From an uncultured Actinomycetes bacterium (GTDB lineage Bacteria; Actinomycetota; Actinomycetes; Streptosporangiales; Streptosporangiaceae): 64,000 nucleotides of DNA. The translations under genes were made by a program, and so were the position numbers. Shown one piece after another: positions 1-29,903 of this stretch; position 1 is the stretch's first letter; every line of letters begins with the position of its first letter. The notes under the pieces are model-generated. The model was not told where the DNA came from and ran no database searches. It saw only the letters and a list, made by a program, of their open reading frames with translations. The stretch spans positions 112,606 to 176,605 of the forward strand of contig CAWAES010000048.1 of the NCBI GenBank assembly GCA_963781085.1. The letters are read 5' to 3'.

Positions 1-270
<270 letters not shown>

Positions 271-285
271 CTATACGTTGAAAGT

Positions 286-310
286 GGCAGGGAGCGGGAA
301 CCTCCCTGCC
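286..310 (-). terminator. GC-rich hairpin followed on the minus strand by ACTTTCAAC, just upstream of the RAE module
   Basis: GGCAGGGAG-7 nt-CTCCCTGCC, 76 nt downstream of the stop of the co-directional 387..749 ORF. A hairpin in the same relative position but with different sequence lies at 22848..22869. Confidence 0.45.
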
Positions 311-386
311 TTTGCCTTTCGCCGGCCGCTGGTGGACGGGTGGGCGCGCCTGGCGGCGTCCCGCCCCTGGGCCAGACGGACCAGGA

Positions 387-20879: not shown

Positions 20880-22135
20880 TCAGCTCGCGCGCGTGTCCTG
20901 CCTGTCCCGCGGTCTCGTGGCTCCTGGTCTCACCCGGCGGGCCCGGGACTCCAGGTAGCGCTGCTCGGCGAGGCTGGCGGTGGCCTTCGCGGCACGCCGG
21001 TAGTGCTCATGCGCCCCGGCTGTGTCGCCGGTCTTCTCCAGCAGATGCGCCCGGACCGACAGCAGCCGGTGATGCCCGGACATCCGCTCGTCAGCTGTCC
21101 AAGGTGGACAGCAGGGCCAGCCCGGCCTGCGGGCCCTCGGTCTCGGCGAGCGCGATCGCCCGGTTGAGGGTGACCATCGGGTTGGGCGCGATCCGCTCCA
21201 GGATCAGGTAGAGAGCGTGCACCTGCGGCCAGTCGGTCTCCGCGGCGGTGGCTGCGTCGGCGTGCGTGGCGGCGATGGCGGCCTGCAGCTGGTAAGGCCC
21301 CAGCGCCGGGGCGGCCAGCGACGCCTTCGCCAGCTCAGTGCCCTCGTCGATCAGCCCGCGGTCCCACGTCGCACGGTCCTGCTCGTCCAGCGGCACCAGG
21401 TCGCCGGCCGCCGTCGTCCGTGCCTCCCGGCGGGCGTGGGTCAGCAGCATCAGCGCGAGCAGCCCGGACACCTCGCCGTCCCCGGGCAGTTGCGCGTGCA
21501 CCGTCCTGGCCAGCCGGATCGCCTCGTGCGCGAGGTCGGCGCGGTGCAACTCGCTGCCCGAGGAGGCGGTGTAGCCCTCGTTGAAGATCAGGTAGAGCAC
21601 GTGCAGGACGACCCGGAGCCGCTCTTCGCGCTCCGCGCCGTCCGGCAGGCTGAACGAGCTGCCGGCGGCCTTGATCCGCTGCTTGGCCCGGCTGATCCTG
21701 GCCGCCATCGTGGCCTCCGGCACCAGGAACGCGCGGGCGATCTCGGCAGTGGTCAGGCCGCCGACCGCGCGCAGCGTCAGGGCGGTCTGGGAGGCCGCGG
21801 TCAGCGTCGGGTGACAGCACAGGAACAGCAGGACCAGCGTGTCGTCGGTGTCTGGTACGTCCTCGGGCACCACGTCGGTGGCTGTCGCCCGCTCCCGCTC
21901 GCGGCGCGCGGCGTCACTGCGCATCGTGGTCGATGAGCCGCCGGGACGCGACAGTCGTCAGCCAGCCGCGCGGGTTGTCCGGCACTCCCCCGTCCGGCCA
22001 CTGCACGGTGGCGGCGAGGACGGCCTCCTGCACGGCGTCCTCACACCCTTCGAACTGGCCATGCCGGCGTACCAGCGTGCCGAGGACCTGCGGCGTGAGC
22101 TCACGCAGCAGGTCCTCGATGGCTGGTGCTGTCAT
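20880..22135 (-). CDS. ECF-type sigma factor with long C-terminal extension (DUF6596-type), two apparent frameshifts (~21086, ~21915-21925)
   Basis: Three track ORFs (21914..22135, 21091..21924, 20880..21083) join into one protein colinear with the intact paralog at 32567..33784. Removing one A gives LSTLDADERMSGHHRLLSVRAHLLE. Confidence 0.8.
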
Positions 22136-22503
22136 GCCTCCAATTGTCCGTCAGCGAACATCACCTGCCGCACCTCGACCCCCAGGCCCTCGATCGCGGC
22201 GTCCGGGATCTGCGCCGCCAGCTCGATCGCCCGCTCCTTGTTCTCGCAGTCGATCAGGTAGAAACCGCCCAGATACTCCTTGGACTCCAGGAAAGGCCCG
22301 TCGGTCACCACCGGCTGGCCGTTGCGCACCGACACCACGGCCGCCTGCGACGGGTCGACCAGCGCCTGCGTGCTGATCAGCTCGCCGGACTTCTTCAGCG
22401 CCGCGATGAACGTGCCGTGGCCCTCACCGATCGCCGCCTTCTCCTCGTCGGTCAGCGCGTCCAGCACGGCCGGGTTGATATGCAGGCTGATCAGGAACTT
22501 CAT
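22132..22503 (-). CDS. YCII-related domain protein
   Basis: MKFLISLHINPAV...VVTDGPFLESKEYLGGFYLIDCENKERAIELA. ATG follows GAGGAG. Its stop overlaps the sigma start. Confidence 0.85.
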   Translation of the reverse strand: MKFLISLHINPAVLDALTDEEKAAIGEGHGTFIAALKKSGELISTQALVDPSQAAVVSVRNGQPVVTDGPFLESKEYLGGFYLIDCENKERAIELAAQIPDAAIEGLGVEVRQVMFADGQLEA

Positions 22504-22847
22504 CTCGTACTCCTCGTGGTTCGCGGGCCCCGGCTGGGCCCTTCGACTGGTTGGTCGGAGCCGCCGCCGTCGTCTTGACATCCCCGGCCGGAAATCTCGC
22601 GCGAGTCTTCCGCCGTCGCGCCGCCCGGACCGCCAGACCGTCACCCGGCTCGGCTGCGCCCGCGGCCCGAGGGTCGACGCCGGACCGGACGACCTGGGTG
22701 GACTCAGACGCCTGGGCGTGACGACACGAGTCTTACCGGCTTCCCCTGAGCCCATCGCGTCGTCGGTGGCCGGGCGGTACCGGCACGTGCGAGGGGCCGG
22801 TGCTTCGCGAGGAGGTCGCCCGGTCTCCCGAGAGCGGCCAAGGAAAA

Positions 22848-22869
22848 GGAGGGGTACCTACTCCCCTCC
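22848..22869 (+). terminator. hairpin GGAGGGG-8 nt-CCCCTCC followed by ATTTTCAAT, directly upstream of RAE copy 2
   Basis: Same relative position and same flanking TTTCAA motif as 286..310, but with a different stem sequence. Confidence 0.45.
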
Positions 22870-22892
22870 ATTTTCAATCTATAGCGCACAGG

Positions 22893-22911
22893 GGGGCTTG
22901 CCGCAAGACCC
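22893..22911 (+). promoter_or_regulatory. RAE-like 19-bp inverted repeat (rifamycin-associated element), copy 2
   Basis: GGGGCTTGCCGCAAGACCC. The left half contains a TTGCCG -35-like hexamer. The element lies 160 nt upstream of GTG 23072. Confidence 0.8.
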
Positions 22912-22922
22912 GGGTCGTGCCG

Positions 22923-22928
22923 CATAAT
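22923..22928 (+). promoter_or_regulatory. putative -10 hexamer CATAAT of the RAE promoter
   Basis: It lies 19 nt downstream of TTGCCG within the RAE. The equivalent hexamer CAGAAT is present in copy 1. Confidence 0.5.
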
Positions 22929-23071
22929 CGCAGGCCGGGGCCACAACTTACGGAGATGGGGGACGTGACGTGCGTGTGTTGCTGCCGGCGTGCAGGTCGC
23001 GCGGGGACGCCGGCCCGGGCCAGCTGCCGGGGAAGCCGCCGGTGACAGACGACCGCGAGAGGAGTGGCCGG

Positions 23072-24640
23072 GTGACGTACACCGACGTGATCGTCGTGGG
23101 GGCCGGCCCGACTGGCCTGATGCTGGCCGCTGAGCTGTGCCTGGCCGGGGTGCGGCCGCTGGTACTGGAGCGGCAGCCGCACCTGCCGCAGACCCCGAAG
23201 GCCAACGGCTTCAACGGGCAGATCGTGGAACTGGTGCGCTACCGGGGCCTGCTGGACCGGGTCGAAGCGGCCAGCGGCCGCCCCGTCGGCCCGGCTCCCG
23301 CGGCCCCGTTCGGCGGTGTGCAGCTGGACTTCTCACACCTGGCCGATCCTCCGACACAGGCGGTGCATCTGCCGCAACCGCGGCTCGAGCGCCTGCTCGG
23401 CGAGCACGCCCGCGAACTCGGCGCCGTCATACGCCGCGGGCACGAGGTCGTCGGGGTCAGCCAGGACGACGCCACGGTGACCGCCGACGTGCGCGGCCCG
23501 GACGGGCTCTACCGGGTGACCGGCCGCTACCTGGCCGGCTGCGACGGCCCCCGCAGCACGGTCCGCGACCTGGCCGGGATCCCGTTCCCCGGCACCACCT
23601 ATCCAGAGGTCAACCGGCTAGGCGAAGTCACCGTGCCCGACTCGGTCACCCGGCTCGGTAACGGTGACCTGGCCGTCCCCGGGCTGGGCAGGATCCGCCC
23701 GGGATTCACCCGGACAGATCGCGGTGTGTTCGGGTTCGGGTCCCTCAGCTCGGGGGTTCTGCTGGTCCAGACCACCGAAGACGAGCCCGCCCGCGACGGC
23801 GGCGACGCGCCGATGACCCTGACCGAGTTCCAGGACAGCATCCGCCGGGTGCTCGGCGCGGACCTGCCCTTGGCCGACGTGACGCGCTTGTCGCGCTACG
23901 CGTTTCAGGCCCGGCAGGCCGAACGGTACCGCGACGGGCGGATCCTGCTGGCCGGCGACGCGGCCCATCAGTTTCCCGCCACCGGTATAGGCATCAACGC
24001 CGGCATGCTCGACGCGGTCAACCTGGCCTGGAAGCTGGCCGCCGCCGCCGTCGGCGGCTGGGCGCCGGCCGGCCTGCTGGACACCTATCACCGCGAACGC
24101 CACTTCGCCGGGACCCGCGCCCTGCTGCAGACCCAGGCCCAGGTGGCGCTGCGCCGCGGGCAGGACCCGGCCGCACGAGCGCTCCGGGAACTCTTCCTCG
24201 AACTGCTCGCCGACGAGCAGCCGTTGCGGCGGGTCGGGGCGCTCATCGCCGGCACCGGCACGCGCTACCCGATGCCCGGCCCCAGCCCGCACGCCCTGGC
24301 CGGCACCTTCGCACCCGACCTCGCCCTGCGCACCGGCCAGGGCATGACCAGCGTCGCCGAACTCATGCGCCCCGCGCGCCCCGTCCTCCTCGACCTGGCC
24401 GGCCGCGCAGACCTCCGCGAGGCCGCCGGCGACTGGCGGCATCGCGTCAACATCCACACCGCGGCCAGCGATCACCGGCCAGCCGACGCCCTGCTGATCC
24501 GGCCGGACGCCCACATCGCCTGGGCCGCAGCCACCGGCGAACCAGCCGCCACCGCCGGGCCCGCGCTGCGGGAAGCGCTGTCCTGCTGGTTCGGCGCGCC
24601 CCTGAAGGCGGCAGCGCCGCTCGCCGGCCAGCCTTCCTGA
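23072..24640 (+). CDS. rox: FAD-dependent monooxygenase, Rox-type rifamycin monooxygenase candidate
   Basis: GTG follows GAGAGGAG. Motifs: [22 protein letters not shown] and LLAGDAAHQFPATGIGINAGMLDAVNLAWKLA (group A flavin monooxygenase). The Rox call rests on the RAE upstream and helR downstream. Confidence 0.75.
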   Translation: MTYTDVIVVGAGPTGLMLAAELCLAGVRPLVLERQPHLPQTPKANGFNGQIVELVRYRGLLDRVEAASGRPVGPAPAAPFGGVQLDFSHLADPPTQAVHLPQPRLERLLGEHARELGAVIRRGHEVVGVSQDDATVTADVRGPDGLYRVTGRYLAGCDGPRSTVRDLAGIPFPGTTYPEVNRLGEVTVPDSVTRLGNGDLAVPGLGRIRPGFTRTDRGVFGFGSLSSGVLLVQTTEDEPARDGGDAPMTLTEFQDSIRRVLGADLPLADVTRLSRYAFQARQAERYRDGRILLAGDAAHQFPATGIGINAGMLDAVNLAWKLAAAAVGGWAPAGLLDTYHRERHFAGTRALLQTQAQVALRRGQDPAARALRELFLELLADEQPLRRVGALIAGTGTRYPMPGPSPHALAGTFAPDLALRTGQGMTSVAELMRPARPVLLDLAGRADLREAAGDWRHRVNIHTAASDHRPADALLIRPDAHIAWAAATGEPAATAGPALREALSCWFGAPLKAAAPLAGQPS

Positions 24641-24747
24641 CCAGCGGCCGGACGTCGCCAGGAGCGTCGTCCCGCGCCCAGAACACGAGAACCCGCGCCT
24701 TGCCGCGCCCCGATGACTGCCCGCGACCTCAGATCGGAGCTGATGCC

Positions 24748-26907
24748 GTGAACTCCCAGACCACCAGCGCGTTCGACCTTCCCGACCGCCTCGCCGCCAA
24801 GGCCGACCCGGCGCTGATCGCCGGTGACGAGCAGCACTTCGCGGCCATCGCATGGAGCCTGGAGCAGTCGATCGCTGACCTGTCCGGCCGCCTCGACGCC
24901 GAGCGCAGCGCGCCCGGCGGCATCGGCCAGGCAGCGATGGACCGGGACATGGAGATCCACCGGCTGGGCGCTCGCCTGCGGGTCCTGCGCCGTTTCGGCC
25001 TGGACCTGTGCCTCGGGCGGATCGTCGGCACGGACAACCCTGAGCCCGTGTACGTGGGACGGCTTGGCCTCACCGACAGCGCGGGCCGGCGGCTGCTGCT
25101 CGACTGGCGCTCCCCCGCGGCTGAGCCGTTCTTCGGAGCGACCCACGCCAACCCGATGAGCCTGGCCAGCCGCCGCAGGTATCGCTGGACCCGCGGCCGG
25201 GTCAGCGACTACTGGGACGAGGTGTTCACCGCGGACGGGCTTGAAGGGCACGCCGCGCTGGACGACCAGTCCGCCTTCGTCGCCAGCCTGGGGGCCAGCC
25301 GGTCGCCCCGGATGCGCGACGTGCTCGGCACCATCGCGGCCGACCAGGACGCCATCGTCCGCGCCGGGTCCCGGGGCGCTCTGGTCGTAGACGGCGGCCC
25401 GGGCACGGGGAAGACCGTCGTCGCCCTGCACCGTTCCGCCTACCTCCTGTACTCCGAGCCCCGCCTCGGTCACCGCCGGGGCGGTGTGCTGTTCGTCGGC
25501 CCGCACCAGCCTTACCTGGCCTATGTCGGCGACGTCCTGCCCAGCCTCGGCGAGGACGGCGTGCAGACAGCCACCTTGCGGGACCTCGTCCCCGAGGGAA
25601 CCACGGCAGCGGCCGAGACCGACCCGGACGTGGCCCGCCTGAAGTCGTCCGCGGACCTGGTGAAGGCGATCGAGCCGGCCGTCAGGTTCTACGAGCAGCC
25701 GCCTGCCCAGGGGATGACAGTCGAGACCCACTGGTCCGACGTCTGGCTGAGCGCCAGCGACTGGGCCGAGGCGTTCGGGGCACCCGACCCCGGTACCCCG
25801 CACAACGAGGCGCGCGGCCAGATCCAGGAGGCGCTGCTCGCGATCCTGATGGACTCCCGCGACGACGACGTCCCGGCTGACCTGTTCCGCAAGTCGCTGC
25901 TGGCGAACCGGGAGCTGCGCACCGCCCTGGGCCGCGCGTGGCCGCTGATCGAGGCGGCTGACCTGGTCGCAGACCTGTGGTCAGTCCCCGCCTACCTGCG
26001 GCTGTGCGCTCCCTGGCTCAGCCCCGGCGAGGTTTCGCGGCTGCAGCGCGAGGACTCCCAGGCCTGGACGGTGTCCGACCTGCCGTTCCTGGACGCGGCC
26101 CGGCAGCGGCTCGGCGACCCGGAGGCGGCCCGGCGCCAGCGCCGGCGTGACGCCGCGGTCGCCGCGGAACGCGAGCAGATGGCCCAGGTGCTCGACACCC
26201 TGATCGAGGTCGCGGACGCAGCAGACGAGTACGGCACCGGCCTGGTCACGATGCTGCGCGGCGAGGACTTCCAGGACGTCCTGGTCAATGACGCCGCGCT
26301 GCCCGGCAGCGATCCGGACGTGCTGGCCGGCCCGTTCGCGCACGTCGTCGTGGACGAGGCCCAGGAACTGACCGACGCGGAGTGGCAGATGCTGCTGCTG
26401 CGCTGCCCGTCCCGGAGCTTCACCATCGTCGGGGACCGCGCCCAGGCCCGGCACGGGTTCCCCGAGTCGTGGCCGGAACGGCTGGAGCGGGTCGGGCTGG
26501 ACCGGATCAGGGTGGCTTCGCTGAGCATCAACTACCGGACGCCGGAAGAGGTCATGACCGAAGCTGAGCCGGTCATCCGGGCCGTGCTCCCGGACGCCAA
26601 CGTGCCGACCTCCATCCGCGCCACCGGCGTTCCCGTCGGCCACGGATCCGTTTCGGATCTGGGCTCAGTGCTCGCCGCGTGGCTCGCCGCGCACGCCGAC
26701 GGGACCGCTGCCGTCATCGGCGACCCAGCGTTCGCGGCGACGTCCCGGGTCCGTTCGCTGACCCCGGAGCTGGCCAAGGGACTCGAGTTCGACCTGGTCG
26801 TCCTGGTCGATCCGGAAGCTTTCGGCGGCGGCGTCCAAGGAGCGGTCAACCGCTATGTCGCGATGACCCGGGCGACCCAGCAACTCGTCGTCCTCACGAG
26901 CCCCTGA
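24748..26907 (+). CDS. helR: HelD/HelR-family helicase-like RNA-polymerase-associated protein
   Basis: Motifs: VYVGRLGLTDSAGRRLLLDWRSPAAEPFFGAT (HelD N-terminal signature), VVDGGPGTGKTVVALHR (Walker A), VVVDEAQELTDAEWQ, EFDLVVLVDP. A start at 24700 is an alternative. Confidence 0.8.
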   Translation: MNSQTTSAFDLPDRLAAKADPALIAGDEQHFAAIAWSLEQSIADLSGRLDAERSAPGGIGQAAMDRDMEIHRLGARLRVLRRFGLDLCLGRIVGTDNPEPVYVGRLGLTDSAGRRLLLDWRSPAAEPFFGATHANPMSLASRRRYRWTRGRVSDYWDEVFTADGLEGHAALDDQSAFVASLGASRSPRMRDVLGTIAADQDAIVRAGSRGALVVDGGPGTGKTVVALHRSAYLLYSEPRLGHRRGGVLFVGPHQPYLAYVGDVLPSLGEDGVQTATLRDLVPEGTTAAAETDPDVARLKSSADLVKAIEPAVRFYEQPPAQGMTVETHWSDVWLSASDWAEAFGAPDPGTPHNEARGQIQEALLAILMDSRDDDVPADLFRKSLLANRELRTALGRAWPLIEAADLVADLWSVPAYLRLCAPWLSPGEVSRLQREDSQAWTVSDLPFLDAARQRLGDPEAARRQRRRDAAVAAEREQMAQVLDTLIEVADAADEYGTGLVTMLRGEDFQDVLVNDAALPGSDPDVLAGPFAHVVVDEAQELTDAEWQMLLLRCPSRSFTIVGDRAQARHGFPESWPERLERVGLDRIRVASLSINYRTPEEVMTEAEPVIRAVLPDANVPTSIRATGVPVGHGSVSDLGSVLAAWLAAHADGTAAVIGDPAFAATSRVRSLTPELAKGLEFDLVVLVDPEAFGGGVQGAVNRYVAMTRATQQLVVLTSP

Positions 26908-26948
26908 CGCCGGCCCGGCCAGGCCGCCCACCGCCCGCGACGGGATCG

Positions 26949-27818
26949 CTAGCCGGGCGTCCCGTCGCGCTCGCTTCTTCGGGCGAGGCCCTGGACTTGC
27001 CGGCCGTGCACGCCGGCCACCCAGTCCCAGCCGTCCTTGGCCGACGGGCCGACCCGCGGGTCGCCGGGAACATGGCCGTCACGCAAGGCGTGCACGTACG
27101 CCCGGTCCTGGTCGATCCGTGCACGCAGCTGACCAGCTCCGCCGACGGACCCGTGGCCGGGAACGAGGACGTCGGCGCCGCCCGCCACGCCCTCCAGCAG
27201 CCGCATCGCGGCGAGGTAGTCCCCGACCGGGTCCGCGGCGGCGTTCAGGTCGAGCATCGGGATCAGGACGTCAGAGAGCATGTCGCCGGTGACGAGGACC
27301 CCGCGTTCCTCAATCAGCAGCGCCGCATGGCCCGGGGCGTGCGCCTGGTGCTCGACAATCCGGACTTGAGGGCCGTCCCAGGGAATCTGCGCCGTCCCGG
27401 CGGGCAGGCCGGCAATGTGGCCGAGCAGGTCCAGCGGTACCTGCCCGGCGATGTCCGGCGGTATCAACTGCCCGGCGACACGGGCCTTCGCGCCCGGGTC
27501 TGACAGCCGGTCCCGGGCCGTGGCCGCGCAGCGCGCCGTGCCGTAACGGGGCGCCGCGCCGAGCCTGGCGTGCCAGAGCAGGTGATCCCAATGCGGATGC
27601 GTCGAGAAGCCTGCCACCACGGCCTGGCCCGAGTCGGACAGGTCGTTCGCGAGGCAGGCCATTTCGTCGCCGAGCACCCCGGGGTCGATGAGCAGCACGC
27701 CAGCCCGGCCGTGCACGGCGACGGCGTTGCTCTGGCAGAACTCGCTCTGGTGGACCAGCACACCCTCCGCGACCTGCCTCAGCACGGGTGCCAGGCTACC
27801 GTGCCCAGCGCCCGCCAC
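26949..27818 (-). CDS. MBL-fold metallo-hydrolase
   Basis: Only the C-terminal 289 codons of the 485-aa track ORF are credible: STHPHWDHLLWH (HxHxDH-type), VTGDML, VPGHG. The GTG start is tentative. Confidence 0.75.
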   Translation of the reverse strand: MAGAGHGSLAPVLRQVAEGVLVHQSEFCQSNAVAVHGRAGVLLIDPGVLGDEMACLANDLSDSGQAVVAGFSTHPHWDHLLWHARLGAAPRYGTARCAATARDRLSDPGAKARVAGQLIPPDIAGQVPLDLLGHIAGLPAGTAQIPWDGPQVRIVEHQAHAPGHAALLIEERGVLVTGDMLSDVLIPMLDLNAAADPVGDYLAAMRLLEGVAGGADVLVPGHGSVGGAGQLRARIDQDRAYVHALRDGHVPGDPRVGPSAKDGWDWVAGVHGRQVQGLARRSERDGTPG

Positions 27819-27838: not shown

Positions 27839-28534
27839 TCAGGCCGTCTCTTGCGGCGCCCCGGCGTCGTCGTACGCGTCGTGCCATCTCCACCAGGAGT
27901 AGGGCGGGGTCTGCGGGTAGCCCTCGGGTGAGTCTTCCCACTCCTCCTGGCGGCCGAGCGCGGTCAGGTCGAGGTAGGCCCAGGTGCCGCCCATGACCTC
28001 GTCGCCGCGGTTGTTGACGAAGTAGGTGCGGTACACGCGGTCGCTGTCGCGGATGAACGCGTTCGTGCCGTGCCACTCGTCCACGCCGTGGTCGGCGTCG
28101 AAGCTGTCGGTCAGGGTGTACCAGGGGATGTCCCAGCCCATCGTGGCCTTGACCCGCTCGATGTCGGGTTGCGGCGCCCGGGAGGCGAAGACGAGGGTGG
28201 TGTCGCGGGCGTTCAGATGGGCGACGTGGGCGACCTGGTCGGCGACCAGGGAACAGCCGGGGCAGGCGTGCTCGGGCCAGCCGTAGACGCCGGGTTCGAA
28301 GAAGGCGCGGTAGACGATCAGCTGGCGGCGCCCCGCGAACAAGCCGGCCAGGCTCACCGCGCCCCCGGGACCCTCGAACTCGTACTCCTTGTCCACGGCC
28401 AGCCACGGCATCCGCCGCCGCTCCGCGGCCAGCGCGTCACGGGCCCGGGTCAGCTCCTTCTCCTTCACCAGCAGCTGCTGGCGCGCGGTCTCCCACTCGT
28501 GCGCGGACACGATCGGGGGTGACTTCATCTTCAT
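27839..28534 (-). CDS. DUF899 thioredoxin-like family protein
   Basis: MKMKSPPIVS follows GGTGGAG. Motifs: EKELTRARDALAAERRRMPW, CPGCS, YFVNNRGDE. Confidence 0.85.
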   Translation of the reverse strand: MKMKSPPIVSAHEWETARQQLLVKEKELTRARDALAAERRRMPWLAVDKEYEFEGPGGAVSLAGLFAGRRQLIVYRAFFEPGVYGWPEHACPGCSLVADQVAHVAHLNARDTTLVFASRAPQPDIERVKATMGWDIPWYTLTDSFDADHGVDEWHGTNAFIRDSDRVYRTYFVNNRGDEVMGGTWAYLDLTALGRQEEWEDSPEGYPQTPPYSWWRWHDAYDDAGAPQETA

Positions 28535-28543
28535 CTCCACCTT

Positions 28544-28576
28544 CTGGTTGTGTTCTGGCTGGTTGTGTTCGGGCTG
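28544..28576 (-). repeat. 15-bp tandem repeat in the leader of the DUF899 gene
   Basis: Minus strand CAGCCNGAACACAAC x2 (reads as QPEHNQPEHNQ in the extended track ORF), upstream of the SD-supported start. Confidence 0.7.
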
Positions 28577-28602
28577 GGTTTTCGTGTTCTGGGCCGCGGA
28601 GG

Positions 28603-29115
28603 TCACGCCGTGGCTCCCGTCCGGGCGGCGTCCGGCAGCAGGGACAGCAGCTGCTGGGCATGGCCGGGCAGCTCCACGTCCGCGAGGCCGGTGACGAGCT
28701 CCCTCAGCGGCACGAGCTGATCGACCAGGACCGTGTCACCGGACAGCAGCAGGGTGGGCACCGGCGTGCTCAGTTCGGCCTCGCTCAGCGCTGGCCCGCC
28801 GAGGGCGCAGAGGCAGTCCCCCTGGGCGCGGACGCGGTCCCGCAGTCCCGCGTTGCCGCCGGCCCGTGCGACGAGGCGTTCGATGGTCCAGGTGTCTAGC
28901 GCTATCCGGTTGTCGAACGTCGCGCTGGTTCCCGAGGCGACCGCAGAGACGGCAGCGATGGTGGTGGCGGTGACGATGGCCACGTGGGCCAGGATCTGGT
29001 CGGCGTTCCACTCGCCGTCCGGCGGGACAGGGCCCGGGTGGCCGGCGCCGGCCACCGCGGCGGCGGCGTCTAGCAGGCTCTGGTAGGCGTCCCGGAGCGG
29101 TTCGGTGTCCAGCAT
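28603..29115 (-). CDS. DinB-like / mycothiol-maleylpyruvate-isomerase N-terminal-domain-like protein
   Basis: Starts at MLDTEPLRDAYQSLLDAAAAV...WNADQILAHVAIV. This is a helical-bundle type pattern, so the family call is moderate. Confidence 0.6.
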   Translation of the reverse strand: MLDTEPLRDAYQSLLDAAAAVAGAGHPGPVPPDGEWNADQILAHVAIVTATTIAAVSAVASGTSATFDNRIALDTWTIERLVARAGGNAGLRDRVRAQGDCLCALGGPALSEAELSTPVPTLLLSGDTVLVDQLVPLRELVTGLADVELPGHAQQLLSLLPDAARTGATA

Positions 29116-29129
29116 GTCTTCGGCTTTCT

Positions 29130-29903
29130 CTAGGCGGGGGCGTGACCCAGGTCGTCGGAGCGTCCGGCGTCCAGGCGGGACCACTGGGCGATGGGGCGCC
29201 CGCCCGGCCACGCCTGCACCGGCGTCCAGGCGGGCGGGCCAGCGTCAGTCCGCGTGTTGGAGCAGTGCTGCGGCCAGCCAGGAGGCGAGTCCTCCCACGA
29301 TTCCTGGCGTCCGTACACGGTGAGGTCCATCAGCGCGTAGCTGTAGTCCATCGCCTCGACGCCGCGCCGGGTCGTCCAGTAGGTCTCGAAGACGCGGTCG
29401 CCGTCCCGCAGGTAGCACACCAGATGGAACAAGCCGGCCTGGCGCCCGGACAGCAGCCGGCCGGCGGAGTCCTCCGCGGAGTACCAGGGCATGTCCCAGC
29501 CCATGAAGTCCCGGTAGCGGACGCTCTGCTCGTACGGGCCCTGGGCGAAGGTGGCGTACGTGACGTCCCGCGAATGCAGGTACGACAGCTCGCCGATATG
29601 GGCGTTATAGAAAGTACAGCCCTCACACTGGGCGGCGGCGGGCTGGCCGGGGTGCCACATGAAGTAGTAGGCGATCAGCTGGCGGCGGCCCTCGAACGCG
29701 TCGAGCAGGGTCAGCGGGCCGTGCGGCCCGGTCAGCGTGAGGCTGGCGTCCATCTCGACCATGGGCAGGCGCCGGCGGGCCGCGGCGATCGCGTCGCCTT
29801 CCCGGGTGTGCGCCTTCTCCCGGGCCCGCAGCGTGTCCAGTTCAGCCTGGAAAGTGGCCCGGTCGGCCACCACCGGCAGCCCGGCAGATACGTGGTCGTT
29901 CAT
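29130..29903 (-). CDS. DUF899 thioredoxin-like family protein (paralog)
   Basis: REKAHTREGDAIAAARRRLPM, CEGCT, YWTTRRGVE. Confidence 0.85.
   Translation of the reverse strand: MNDHVSAGLPVVADRATFQAELDTLRAREKAHTREGDAIAAARRRLPMVEMDASLTLTGPHGPLTLLDAFEGRRQLIAYYFMWHPGQPAAAQCEGCTFYNAHIGELSYLHSRDVTYATFAQGPYEQSVRYRDFMGWDMPWYSAEDSAGRLLSGRQAGLFHLVCYLRDGDRVFETYWTTRRGVEAMDYSYALMDLTVYGRQESWEDSPPGWPQHCSNTRTDAGPPAWTPVQAWPGGRPIAQWSRLDAGRSDDLGHAPA

What the first reader, a model, noticed from the sequence alone, without database searches (positions are those of the whole stretch)
22848..26907. RAE-preceded rox-helR pair: a two-mechanism rifamycin resistance operon
Seen in sequence: a 19-bp inverted repeat, GGGGCTTGCCGCAAGACCC (22893..22911), overlaps a -35-like TTGCCG, with CATAAT 19 nt downstream. 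It sits upstream of a group-A FAD monooxygenase (23072..24640), followed about 60-110 nt later by a HelD-type helicase-like protein (24748..26907). Established knowledge: in actinomycetes the rifamycin-associated element (RAE) is a conserved palindrome of this type (consensus close to GGGGCTTGCGGCAAGCCCC, from my memory). It marks rifamycin-inducible resistance genes including rox (rifamycin monooxygenase) and helR (displaces rifamycin from RNA polymerase). Inference: here enzymatic inactivation and target protection appear fused into one RAE-driven transcription unit. I found no separate RAE in the 24641..24747 spacer.
Basis: partly seen in the sequence, partly recalled or inferred. Interest (0 to 1): 0.7.

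Follow-up and report, generated by a model that had tools for sequence, protein, structure and literature searches.

The report
Rifamycin-inducible monooxygenase–HelR resistance operon
A genuine rifamycin-associated promoter element sits in front of a flavin monooxygenase and the RNA-polymerase protector HelR, but the monooxygenase is only a distant relative of Rox, not an orthologue, and the real Rox gene with its own element lies at the left edge of the window.

Summary
The 19-bp RAE lies at 22893..22911, with TTGCCG, a 19-nt spacer and CATAAT. Two same-strand genes follow, separated by 107 nt that contain no second RAE.

HelR is certain: NCBIfam motor_HelR scores 1264 bits against a cut-off of 750.

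The "rox" label is only partly right. The monooxygenase is a group A FAD enzyme, but it scores 334 bits against the 800-bit rif_monoox cut-off. It is 39% identical to a true Rox, and its best solved relatives are 23lo and MtmOIV. A true RAE-rox lies at window 1..262 on the minus strand and is cut by the window edge.

The monooxygenase belongs to a separate, unnamed family. That family carries an RAE in 17 fetched genome loci from several actinomycete genera and in a few of 80 metagenome RAE hits. A rifamycin substrate is therefore plausible but untested.

The order RAE, monooxygenase, helR recurs in four related loci. Close HelR orthologues elsewhere sit directly behind an RAE and share the same 5' UTR, which supports promoter sharing.

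Seen in passing: the RAE is the core of a roughly 150-bp conserved module. The module has mirror-image -10 boxes, a covarying stem-loop and a fossil rgt start.

Verdict: a new variant of a known system, of moderate interest.

The parts
22848..22869 (.). Stem-loop GGAGGGG-N8-CCCCTCC. On the minus strand it is followed by TTTTCC, which looks like a terminator. It is the distal end of the conserved RAE module.
   Evidence: The terminator scan reports it on both strands. The equivalent stem covaries in other loci. Over 68 modules the mean MFE is -11.6 on the gene strand and -13.2 on the opposite strand, against -7.0 for shuffles.
22873..22889 (-). Conserved box TTTCAATCTATAGCGCAC. Its reverse complement holds a -10-like TAGATT (22876..22881), 19 nt from TTGCGG (reverse complement of 22901..22906).
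   Evidence: In alignment A4, A-11 and T-7 are invariant. With orientation set only by the downstream gene, TAnnnT is present in 56 of 65 loci.
22893..22911 (.). RAE, a 19-bp imperfect palindrome: GGGGCTTGCCGCAAGACCC.
   Evidence: The same element lies upstream of rifamycin-resistance homologues in 65 metagenome orientations and in 17 genome loci.
22898..22928 (+). Sense promoter: -35-like TTGCCG (22898..22903), a 19-nt spacer, and -10 CATAAT (22923..22928).
   Evidence: In the -10 box, A-11 is conserved in 100% of 68 modules, T-7 in 99% and C at -12 in 85%.
22970..23071 (+). Leader ORF VRVLLPACRSRGDAGP..., behind SD GGAGATGGGGG (22952..22962). It is a fossil of the 5' end of an rgt glycosyltransferase gene. 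Here it is in frame with the monooxygenase.
   Evidence: 35 to 38 of 48 nt are identical to the 5' ends of full-length RAE-linked Rgt-like genes, at the same distance from the RAE. In L002, L005, L006 and L010 it is a separate uORF that ends at a TGA overlapping the monooxygenase start.
23072..24640 (+). Group A FAD-dependent monooxygenase, 522 aa (556 aa if translated from 22970). It is Rox-like but belongs to a distinct, unnamed family.
24641..24747 (+). Intergenic spacer. Its last 25 to 30 nt (GCGACCTCAGATCGGAGCTGATGCC) match the 5' UTR and SD seen where helR sits directly behind an RAE.
24748..26907 (+). helR, the RNA polymerase recycling motor ATPase HelR (719 aa). Walker A is GPGTGKT and Walker B is VVVDEAQ.
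   Evidence: NCBIfam NF041254 scores 1263.8 bits against a 750-bit cut-off. PDB 6yxu, M. smegmatis HelD, scores 349 bits. The motifs are read from the translation.
26936..26969 (+). GC-rich hairpin followed by CUCGCUUCUUC. It may mark the end of the transcription unit.
   Evidence: Fold. The evidence is weak: z = -0.94, and the terminator scan did not flag it.
1..262 (-). Context: a second RAE (244..262) faces the 5' end of a true rox gene (starts at 183, cut by the window edge). The same module flank lies at 264..320, with its stem-loop at 286..310.
   Evidence: The full-length gene recovered on contig L081 scores 900.9 bits to rif_monoox.

Best explanation
This is a rifamycin-responsive bicistronic resistance unit.

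**Shown from sequence and comparison.**
- A canonical RAE overlaps the -35 of a promoter whose -10 is CATAAT.
- The transcript would carry a leader that is a relic of an rgt start, then a group A FAD monooxygenase, then helR 107 nt further on.
- No RAE, promoter-like match or terminator-like match lies between the two genes.
- helR keeps the 5' UTR and Shine-Dalgarno sequence that abut the RAE leader directly in close orthologues.

**Inferred.**
- Sub-inhibitory rifamycin induces one mRNA from the RAE promoter.
- HelR binds RNA polymerase and displaces bound rifamycin in an ATP-dependent way, giving immediate tolerance.
- The monooxygenase oxidises and inactivates the drug, probably by hydroxylation or oxidative ring cleavage of the naphthalene core, as Rox does.

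The monooxygenase is not a Rox orthologue. It is a member of a third RAE-linked flavin monooxygenase family. The same genome keeps a true RAE-rox about 23 kb away.
For: **RAE is real.** It is non-random and matches the element in front of HelR, Rox-like, Rph, Rgt-like and Arr homologues.

**HelR.** It scores above the curated cut-off, and the ATPase motifs are intact.

**Monooxygenase.** The FAD motifs are intact and the Pfam architecture is as expected. Orthologues at 55 to 86% identity carry an RAE 60 to 205 nt upstream in 17 fetched genome loci. These come from Kutzneria, Saccharothrix, Nocardia, Kribbella, Amycolatopsis, Actinoplanes, Streptodolium, a Mycobacterium MAG and Streptosporangiaceae MAGs. 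It is also the best match for the gene behind the RAE in 3 to 5 of 80 metagenome hits, depending on how orientation is set.

**Operon.**
- The same order, with a single RAE, is found in L002, L005, L083 and L084.
- The spacer shows no signals.
- HelR orthologues at 83 to 84% identity (L161, L137) sit directly behind an RAE and share the CAGATCGGAGC Shine-Dalgarno region found in the window spacer.
- Other stacked RAE units exist: helR followed by a rox-like gene in L101, and rgt followed by a helD-like gene in L095.

**Literature.** The RAE is required for rifamycin induction. HelR and Rox are both induced and act additively in S. venezuelae (bioRxiv 10.1101/2021.05.10.443488; 10.1101/2021.05.10.443476).
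Against: - The monooxygenase fails the Rox equivalog threshold. Its best solved relatives are polyketide-tailoring or Baeyer-Villiger-type enzymes.
- Most fetched orthologues have no RAE, and several Streptomyces ones sit next to a divergent TetR-family regulator. The family as a whole is therefore not rifamycin-specific.
- Co-transcription is inferred only. A 107-nt spacer could hide a promoter that the simple scan misses; that scan did not flag the RAE promoter itself either.
- No expression, MIC or enzymatic data exist.
Confidence: 0.7

Rival explanations
1. Only helR is a rifamycin-resistance gene here. The monooxygenase is an aromatic or polyketide hydroxylase with another substrate, and it merely landed between the RAE promoter and helR.
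For: - rif_monoox scores 334 bits against an 800-bit cut-off.
- PDB ranking puts 23lo, MtmOIV and OxyS above Rox.
- About three quarters of fetched orthologues lack an RAE, and some are paired with a TetR regulator.
- All database names are the generic 'FAD-dependent monooxygenase'.
Against: - RAE linkage of this family recurs in distant genera, and in loci without helR.
- True Rox itself has OxyS and MtmOIV as its nearest non-Rox structures, so those neighbours are no argument against rifamycin chemistry.
- The gene is intact and is kept in all five loci that have this arrangement.
Confidence: 0.25
2. There are two transcription units. helR has its own unrecognised promoter in the 3' end of the monooxygenase gene or in the spacer, and the RAE controls only the monooxygenase.
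For: The spacer is 107 nt, and about 55 nt upstream of helR is conserved between the window, L083, L002 and L084. The promoter scan is insensitive.
Against: - There is no RAE at up to 3 mismatches and no -35/-10 pair.
- The proximal part of the conserved stretch corresponds to the 5' UTR found downstream of the RAE promoter in stand-alone helR loci.
- There is no terminator-like structure after the monooxygenase.
- According to the literature, RAE association is the hallmark that separates HelR from other HelD-like proteins.
Confidence: 0.2
3. The palindrome is a chance inverted repeat in GC-rich DNA and not a regulatory element.
For: None, beyond the general abundance of GC-rich repeats.
Against: - 0.09 matches are expected and 4 strand-matches are seen.
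- About 100 bp of flanking sequence is shared with the second copy in the window and with dozens of loci elsewhere.
Confidence: 0.01

Closest known systems
S. venezuelae RAE-rox (SVEN_0481) and RAE-helR (SVEN_6029), Surette et al. (bioRxiv 10.1101/2021.05.10.443488; Mol Cell 2022)
   Same: A 19-bp RAE lies in front of rifamycin-inducible genes. HelR belongs to the same NCBIfam family. Drug destruction is combined with target protection.
   Different: In S. venezuelae the two genes are at separate loci, each with its own RAE. Here one RAE precedes both. helR starts 1.85 kb from the RAE, so the 500-bp upstream rule used in that survey would miss it. The oxygenase belongs to another family.
Rox / RIFMO rifamycin monooxygenases (PDB 5kow, 5vqb; NCBIfam NF033145)
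   Same: Group A FAD monooxygenase with FAD_binding_3 plus the C-terminal Rng_hyd_C domain. RAE-linked.
   Different: 39% identity. 334 bits against an 800-bit cut-off. About 45 residues longer, with insertions around residues 195 to 235. A true Rox is encoded separately at the window edge.
Atypical group A Baeyer-Villiger or ring-cleaving oxygenases: MtmOIV (PDB 4k5r, 3fmw) and PDB 23lo
   Same: They are the best sequence matches among solved structures: 387 bits and about 45% identity for 23lo, and 343 bits for MtmOIV.
   Different: MtmOIV is a biosynthetic tailoring enzyme (from my own knowledge). The origin of 23lo could not be traced. Neither is an orthologue: family members are at least 55% identical to the window protein.
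RAE-linked PRK06834-type monooxygenases (NCBIfam NF005303, named 'hypothetical protein')
   Same: A second RAE-linked flavin monooxygenase family. It is the commonest oxygenase behind the RAE in the metagenome sample.
   Different: 36 to 40% identical to the window family and 43% identical to Rox. The window gene scores only 335 bits to that model, whose cut-off is 625.
M. smegmatis / M. abscessus helR promoter (P1/P2 model; FEMS Microbiol Rev 2022, PMC10719064)
   Same: The RAE overlaps the -35 of the promoter nearest the gene.
   Different: That model places a second, same-strand promoter upstream of the RAE. The alignments here show instead a mirror-image -10 on the opposite strand, followed by a stem-loop.
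Rgt, rifamycin glycosyltransferase (NCBIfam NF000354)
   Same: The first 16 codons after the RAE leader (22970..23017) are homologous to the Rgt N-terminus MRVLLSTWGSRGDVEP.
   Different: Only a fossil remains. No glycosyltransferase is encoded here.

Membership tests
RAE (rifamycin-associated element) | A 19-bp inverted repeat of the GGGGCTTGCSGCAAGNCCC type | tested here: met
   There is an exact match at 22893..22911. The same pattern precedes rifamycin-resistance homologues elsewhere. The published logo itself could not be read, because PNAS 2014 is not held.
RAE (rifamycin-associated element) | Lies just upstream of a rifamycin-resistance gene and overlaps its promoter's -35 | tested here: met
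   TTGCCG lies inside the RAE and CATAAT lies 19 nt downstream. The -10 is conserved across 68 modules.
RAE (rifamycin-associated element) | Required for induction by rifamycins | not testable with these tools
   This needs a reporter or qRT-PCR assay.
HelR (RAE-associated class II HelD-like protein) | Sequence membership above the curated threshold | tested here: met
   NF041254 motor_HelR scores 1263.8 bits against a 750-bit cut-off, full length.
HelR (RAE-associated class II HelD-like protein) | Intact SF1 ATPase motifs, with homology to RNAP-bound HelD | tested here: met
   GPGTGKT and VVVDEAQ are present in the translation. PDB 6yxu HelD scores 349 bits.
HelR (RAE-associated class II HelD-like protein) | RAE in its own upstream region | tested here: not met
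   No RAE lies in 24641..24747. The only RAE is 1.85 kb upstream, in front of the monooxygenase, so control would be indirect through read-through.
HelR (RAE-associated class II HelD-like protein) | Displaces rifamycin from RNAP and raises the MIC | not testable with these tools
   Requires an experiment.
Rox (rifamycin monooxygenase) | NCBIfam rif_monoox equivalog score at or above the cut-off | tested here: not met
   334.5 bits against 800. The window-edge paralogue scores 900.9.
Rox (rifamycin monooxygenase) | Orthology to characterised Rox (5kow, 5vqb) | tested here: not met
   242 and 269 bits, ranked 13th and 8th, against 783 and 778 bits for the true Rox. Identity is 39%. Identity between families is 36 to 43% and within families 62 to 76%.
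Rox (rifamycin monooxygenase) | Group A flavoprotein monooxygenase architecture | tested here: met
   PF01494 plus PF21274. The GxGxxG, DG and GD motifs are present in the translation.
Rox (rifamycin monooxygenase) | Hydroxylates and linearises rifamycins | not testable with these tools
   Requires an enzyme assay with LC-MS.
Single RAE-driven operon | Same strand, short gap, and no internal promoter or terminator signal | tested here: inconclusive
   No signals were found, but the scans are insensitive for high-GC actinomycete promoters.
Single RAE-driven operon | Gene order conserved with a single RAE | tested here: met
   L002, L005, L083 and L084.

The most novel reading that the evidence does not exclude
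The RAE is not a stand-alone operator. It is the shared -35 core of two back-to-back promoters. One is a consensus TAnnnT promoter on the opposite strand that would make only a 25 to 30-nt RNA ending at a hairpin terminator. The other is a deliberately weak CAnAAT promoter for the resistance genes. On this reading, rifamycin induction would arise from RNA polymerase itself, through competition or occupancy at the two mutually exclusive sites, and not from a dedicated rifamycin-binding regulator. In the same locus, the monooxygenase would be a third, uncharacterised class of rifamycin-inactivating flavoenzyme.
Probability: 0.25. Interest if true: 0.85.

Novelty: new variant of a known kind. Interest (0 to 1): 0.55.

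Why it matters
- **RAE-guided discovery.** This approach has already yielded Rph and HelR. Here it points to a widespread, unnamed flavin monooxygenase family as a candidate rifamycin-inactivating enzyme that resistance-gene catalogues would miss.
- **Hidden helR genes.** helR can be under RAE control without an RAE in its own upstream region. Surveys that use a 500-bp upstream window therefore undercount RAE-controlled helR genes.
- **Stacked units.** The examples seen (monooxygenase then helR, helR then a rox-like gene, rgt then a helD-like gene) suggest that tolerance and drug destruction are repeatedly wired to a single promoter.
- **How rifamycin is sensed.** The extended symmetric module gives a concrete, mutable hypothesis for how the RAE senses rifamycins. 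The held papers (2021 and 2022) describe that mechanism as unknown.

Tried and rejected
- **Rfam.** A gathering-threshold scan of the whole window and an E-value scan of 22500..23100 found no known RNA family.
- **Folding of the leader and spacer.** Neither the mRNA leader 22935..23080 nor the spacer folds unusually (z = +1.44 and +0.87). I found no evidence for an attenuator.
- **RAE relic in the spacer.** GCGCCTTGCCGCGCCCCGA (24695..24713) matches only 11 of 19 positions by my own count and is not palindromic. I rejected it.
- **Perfect-stem count.** A simple count of perfect stems upstream of the RAE gave weak separation from shuffles (5.8 against 4.7 pairs). MFE against shuffles was clearer.
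- **Origin of PDB 23lo.** I tried to trace it through the literature and failed. It is about 45% identical to the window protein and is not an orthologue.
- **Original RAE paper.** PNAS 2014 is not held, so I could not check the published logo or any wider alignment it may show.
- **Small ORFs upstream.** ORFs in the 350-bp non-coding stretch 22504..22850 gave nothing recognisable.
- **Structure prediction.** Not run. It could not discriminate substrate.

Full report
**1.

The 19-mer GGGGCTTGCCGCAAGACCC is at 22893..22911. TTGCCG is at 22898..22903 and CATAAT at 22923..22928, separated by 19 nt.

With up to three mismatches the pattern occurs at just two places in the window, here and at 244..262. 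Chance predicts 0.09 matches, and none of 100 shuffles reached the observed number.

Codon-position GC supports both ORFs (GC3 of 0.90 and 0.91). The 107-nt spacer 24641..24747 has no RAE, no promoter-like or terminator-like match, and folds no better than shuffles.

A GC-rich hairpin at 26936..26969 may close the unit, but the evidence is weak.

**2. What the genes are.**

*HelR.* The second gene is HelR beyond reasonable doubt. NCBIfam motor_HelR scores 1263.8 bits against a cut-off of 750 over the full length. It scores 349 bits to M. smegmatis HelD, PDB 6yxu. Walker A and B motifs are intact.

*The monooxygenase.* The first gene is a group A FAD monooxygenase with FAD_binding_3 plus Rng_hyd_C, but it is not Rox:
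- rif_monoox scores 334.5 bits against a cut-off of 800, no better than two generic models.
- Among solved structures it ranks 23lo (387 bits, labelled a Baeyer-Villiger monooxygenase), MtmOIV (343) and OxyS (289) ahead of Rox 5vqb (269) and 5kow (242).

*The true Rox.* The second RAE in the window, at 244..262, faces a minus-strand monooxygenase that is cut after 61 codons by the window edge. I recovered the full gene from a near-identical contig, L081. It is a true Rox, with 900.9 bits to rif_monoox and 783 and 778 bits to 5kow and 5vqb. The two paralogues are 39% identical.

**3. The monooxygenase family.**

A scan of one genome per species found orthologues at 55 to 86% identity in many actinomycete genera. 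Seventeen of the fetched loci carry an RAE (up to 3 mismatches) 60 to 205 nt upstream. They come from Kutzneria, Saccharothrix, five Nocardia genomes, two Kribbella genomes, Amycolatopsis, Actinoplanes, Streptodolium, a Mycobacterium MAG and Streptosporangiaceae MAGs.

In a neighbour-joining tree the RAE-bearing members are the earlier-branching, paraphyletic ones. Some RAE-less members lie beside a divergent TetR-family regulator.

Database names are all generic.

In an independent sample of 80 metagenome RAE hits, I set orientation only by the downstream gene. The genes behind the RAE then break down as follows:

| Gene class behind the RAE | Count |
|---|---|
| Best match to the Rox reference | 24 |
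| HelR | 16 |
| Rph | 9 |
| Rgt-like | 8 |
| This monooxygenase family | 5 |
| Arr | 3 |

Most of the 24 Rox-reference matches are only 42 to 48% identical to Rox. The three I tested belong to NCBIfam PRK06834, scoring 815 to 908 bits to a model named "hypothetical protein".

The three oxygenase families are 36 to 43% identical to each other and 62 to 76% identical within a family.

Zheng et al. (PMC7283461) showed Rox activity for a homologue only 49% identical to NfRox. Sequence distance alone therefore does not exclude rifamycin turnover. The window family is still untested.

**4. The operon.**

The order RAE, leader, monooxygenase, helR, with a single RAE, recurs in L002, L005, L083 and L084. 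Their monooxygenases are 80 to 94% identical to the window protein.

The start region of helR (GGAGCTGATGCCGTG) is conserved, while the rest of the spacer varies in length.

HelR orthologues at 83 to 84% identity (L161, L137) sit directly behind an RAE. Their leaders run into the same CAGATCGGAGC segment found at 24730..24740 in the window. The simplest history is that an RAE-monooxygenase cassette displaced helR's own RAE, leaving helR dependent on read-through.

Other stacked units exist in the sample: helR followed 30 nt later by a rox-like gene (L101), and rgt followed by a helD-like gene (L095).

In S. venezuelae, rox and helR are at separate loci, each with its own RAE, and they act additively. 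The word "operon" does not occur in that preprint.

**5. The start of the monooxygenase and the leader.**

A conserved Shine-Dalgarno sequence and GTG at 22970 open the reading frame VRVLLPACRSRGDAGP. This is homologous (35 to 38 of 48 nt) to the first 16 codons of full-length RAE-linked Rgt-like glycosyltransferases, and it lies at the same distance from the RAE.

In L002, L005, L006 and L010 this fossil is a short uORF. It stops at a TGA overlapping the monooxygenase start (GTGATG). In the window a 1-nt difference puts it in frame.

A 556-aa form is also possible.

Truncated Rgt starts also precede helR, rox-like and rph genes in other loci. This suggests that the promoter-plus-leader region spread as a cassette.

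**6. Seen in passing: the RAE is the core of a larger module.**

In 68 aligned modules (A4) the conserved order is:
- a stem-loop;
- CACTTTCAAC-N-TATAGCGCAC;
- 3 nt;
- the RAE;
- GGGTCGTGCCG;
- CAkAAT;
- a conserved leader.

The conservation pattern reveals two mirror-image -10 signatures, each 19 nt from a TTGCSG hexamer inside the palindrome. In each, A-11 lies 22 nt from the dyad.

With orientation set only by the downstream gene, the two hexamers behave differently across 65 loci:

| Hexamer | Fits .A...T | Other feature |
|---|---|---|
| Opposite strand | 61 of 65 | Fits TAnnnT in 56 of 65 |
| Gene strand | 62 of 65 | Has a non-consensus C at -12 in 53 of 65 |

A transcript from the opposite-strand promoter would begin at about the first base of the stem-loop (22869 reading down to 22848). 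On that strand the stem-loop is followed by TTTTCC.

The stem region folds better than shuffles (mean -11.6 against -7.0 kcal/mol, mean z of -2.0) and slightly better on the opposite strand (-13.2). The arms differ between loci in compensatory fashion.

The two -35-like hexamers overlap, so I infer that polymerase occupancy of the two promoters would be mutually exclusive.

The held literature calls the RAE a 19-bp element of unknown mechanism. One review places a second, same-strand promoter upstream in M. smegmatis. I could not read the original 2014 paper. Whether this architecture underlies rifamycin sensing is speculation.

**7. Verdict.**

The RAE and HelR are right, and the single-promoter two-gene unit is well supported by comparative evidence but not demonstrated. 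"rox" must be replaced by [quoted passage not shown].

This is a new variant of a known system. Its interest lies in three things: the candidate new inactivating enzyme family, the hidden RAE control of helR, and the testable module architecture.

Noticed in passing
window 1..320 (minus-strand gene 1..183; RAE 244..262; stem-loop 286..310): There is a second complete RAE module. It faces a canonical rox gene that is cut by the window edge. The full-length copy on L081:11252-12691 scores 900.9 bits to NCBIfam rif_monoox. This genome therefore has two RAE-driven monooxygenases of different families about 23 kb apart.
   Followed up: yes
window 22848..22970, and alignment A4 of 68 loci: The RAE is embedded in a roughly 150-bp conserved module. 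The module has mirror-image -10 boxes: TAnnnT on the opposite strand and CAnAAT on the gene strand, each 19 nt from a TTGCSG hexamer inside the palindrome. A covarying stem-loop sits where an opposite-strand transcript would start, and on that strand it looks like a terminator.
   Followed up: partly
window 22970..23071; L097, L101, L117, L124, L128, L131, L139, L140, L144, L145, L156, L162 and L163: Truncated 5' ends of an Rgt-like glycosyltransferase gene (MRVLLSTYGSRGDVEP...) survive as leader ORFs. They lie between the RAE and unrelated resistance genes (helR, rox-like, rph, and this monooxygenase). This suggests the promoter-leader region moved as a cassette.
   Followed up: partly
metagenome loci, e.g. 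L113:3674-5125, L134:1680-3209, L148:1494-2933: The commonest monooxygenase behind RAEs in the sample is neither Rox nor the window family. It is an NCBIfam PRK06834-type protein, named 'hypothetical protein', that scores 815 to 908 bits to that model and is 43% identical to Rox.
   Followed up: partly
L101 (RAE, rgt fossil, helR, rox-like gene) and L095 (RAE, rgt, helD-like gene): Other multi-gene units lie behind a single RAE and combine target protection with an inactivating enzyme, in different gene orders.
   Followed up: partly
L012, L017, L021 and L023, about 60 to 200 nt upstream of the monooxygenase orthologue: Streptomyces orthologues lack an RAE. Instead they have repeated ACGGCACGGCACGTGCCGT-type palindromes. 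In L023 there is a divergent TetR-family gene (L023:5316-5891). This implies a different inducer for that branch of the family.
   Followed up: partly
L034:7635-8558: In Nocardia terrae the RAE-linked monooxygenase is followed about 75 nt later, on the same strand, by an alpha/beta hydrolase.
   Followed up: no
window 21091..22503 (minus strand); also L083 and L084: A YCII-domain gene and an ECF-type sigma factor with DUF6596 lie divergently upstream of the RAE. This pairing is conserved in the related loci. About 350 bp of apparently non-coding DNA (22504..22850) separates them from the module.
   Followed up: no
window 27839..28606 and 29130..29903 (minus strand): Two DUF899 genes lie close together downstream of helR. 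DUF899 genes are also present in L084.
   Followed up: no
L081:12939-13058: A 39-aa DUF6893 ORF was called about 250 nt downstream of the canonical rox gene.
   Followed up: no
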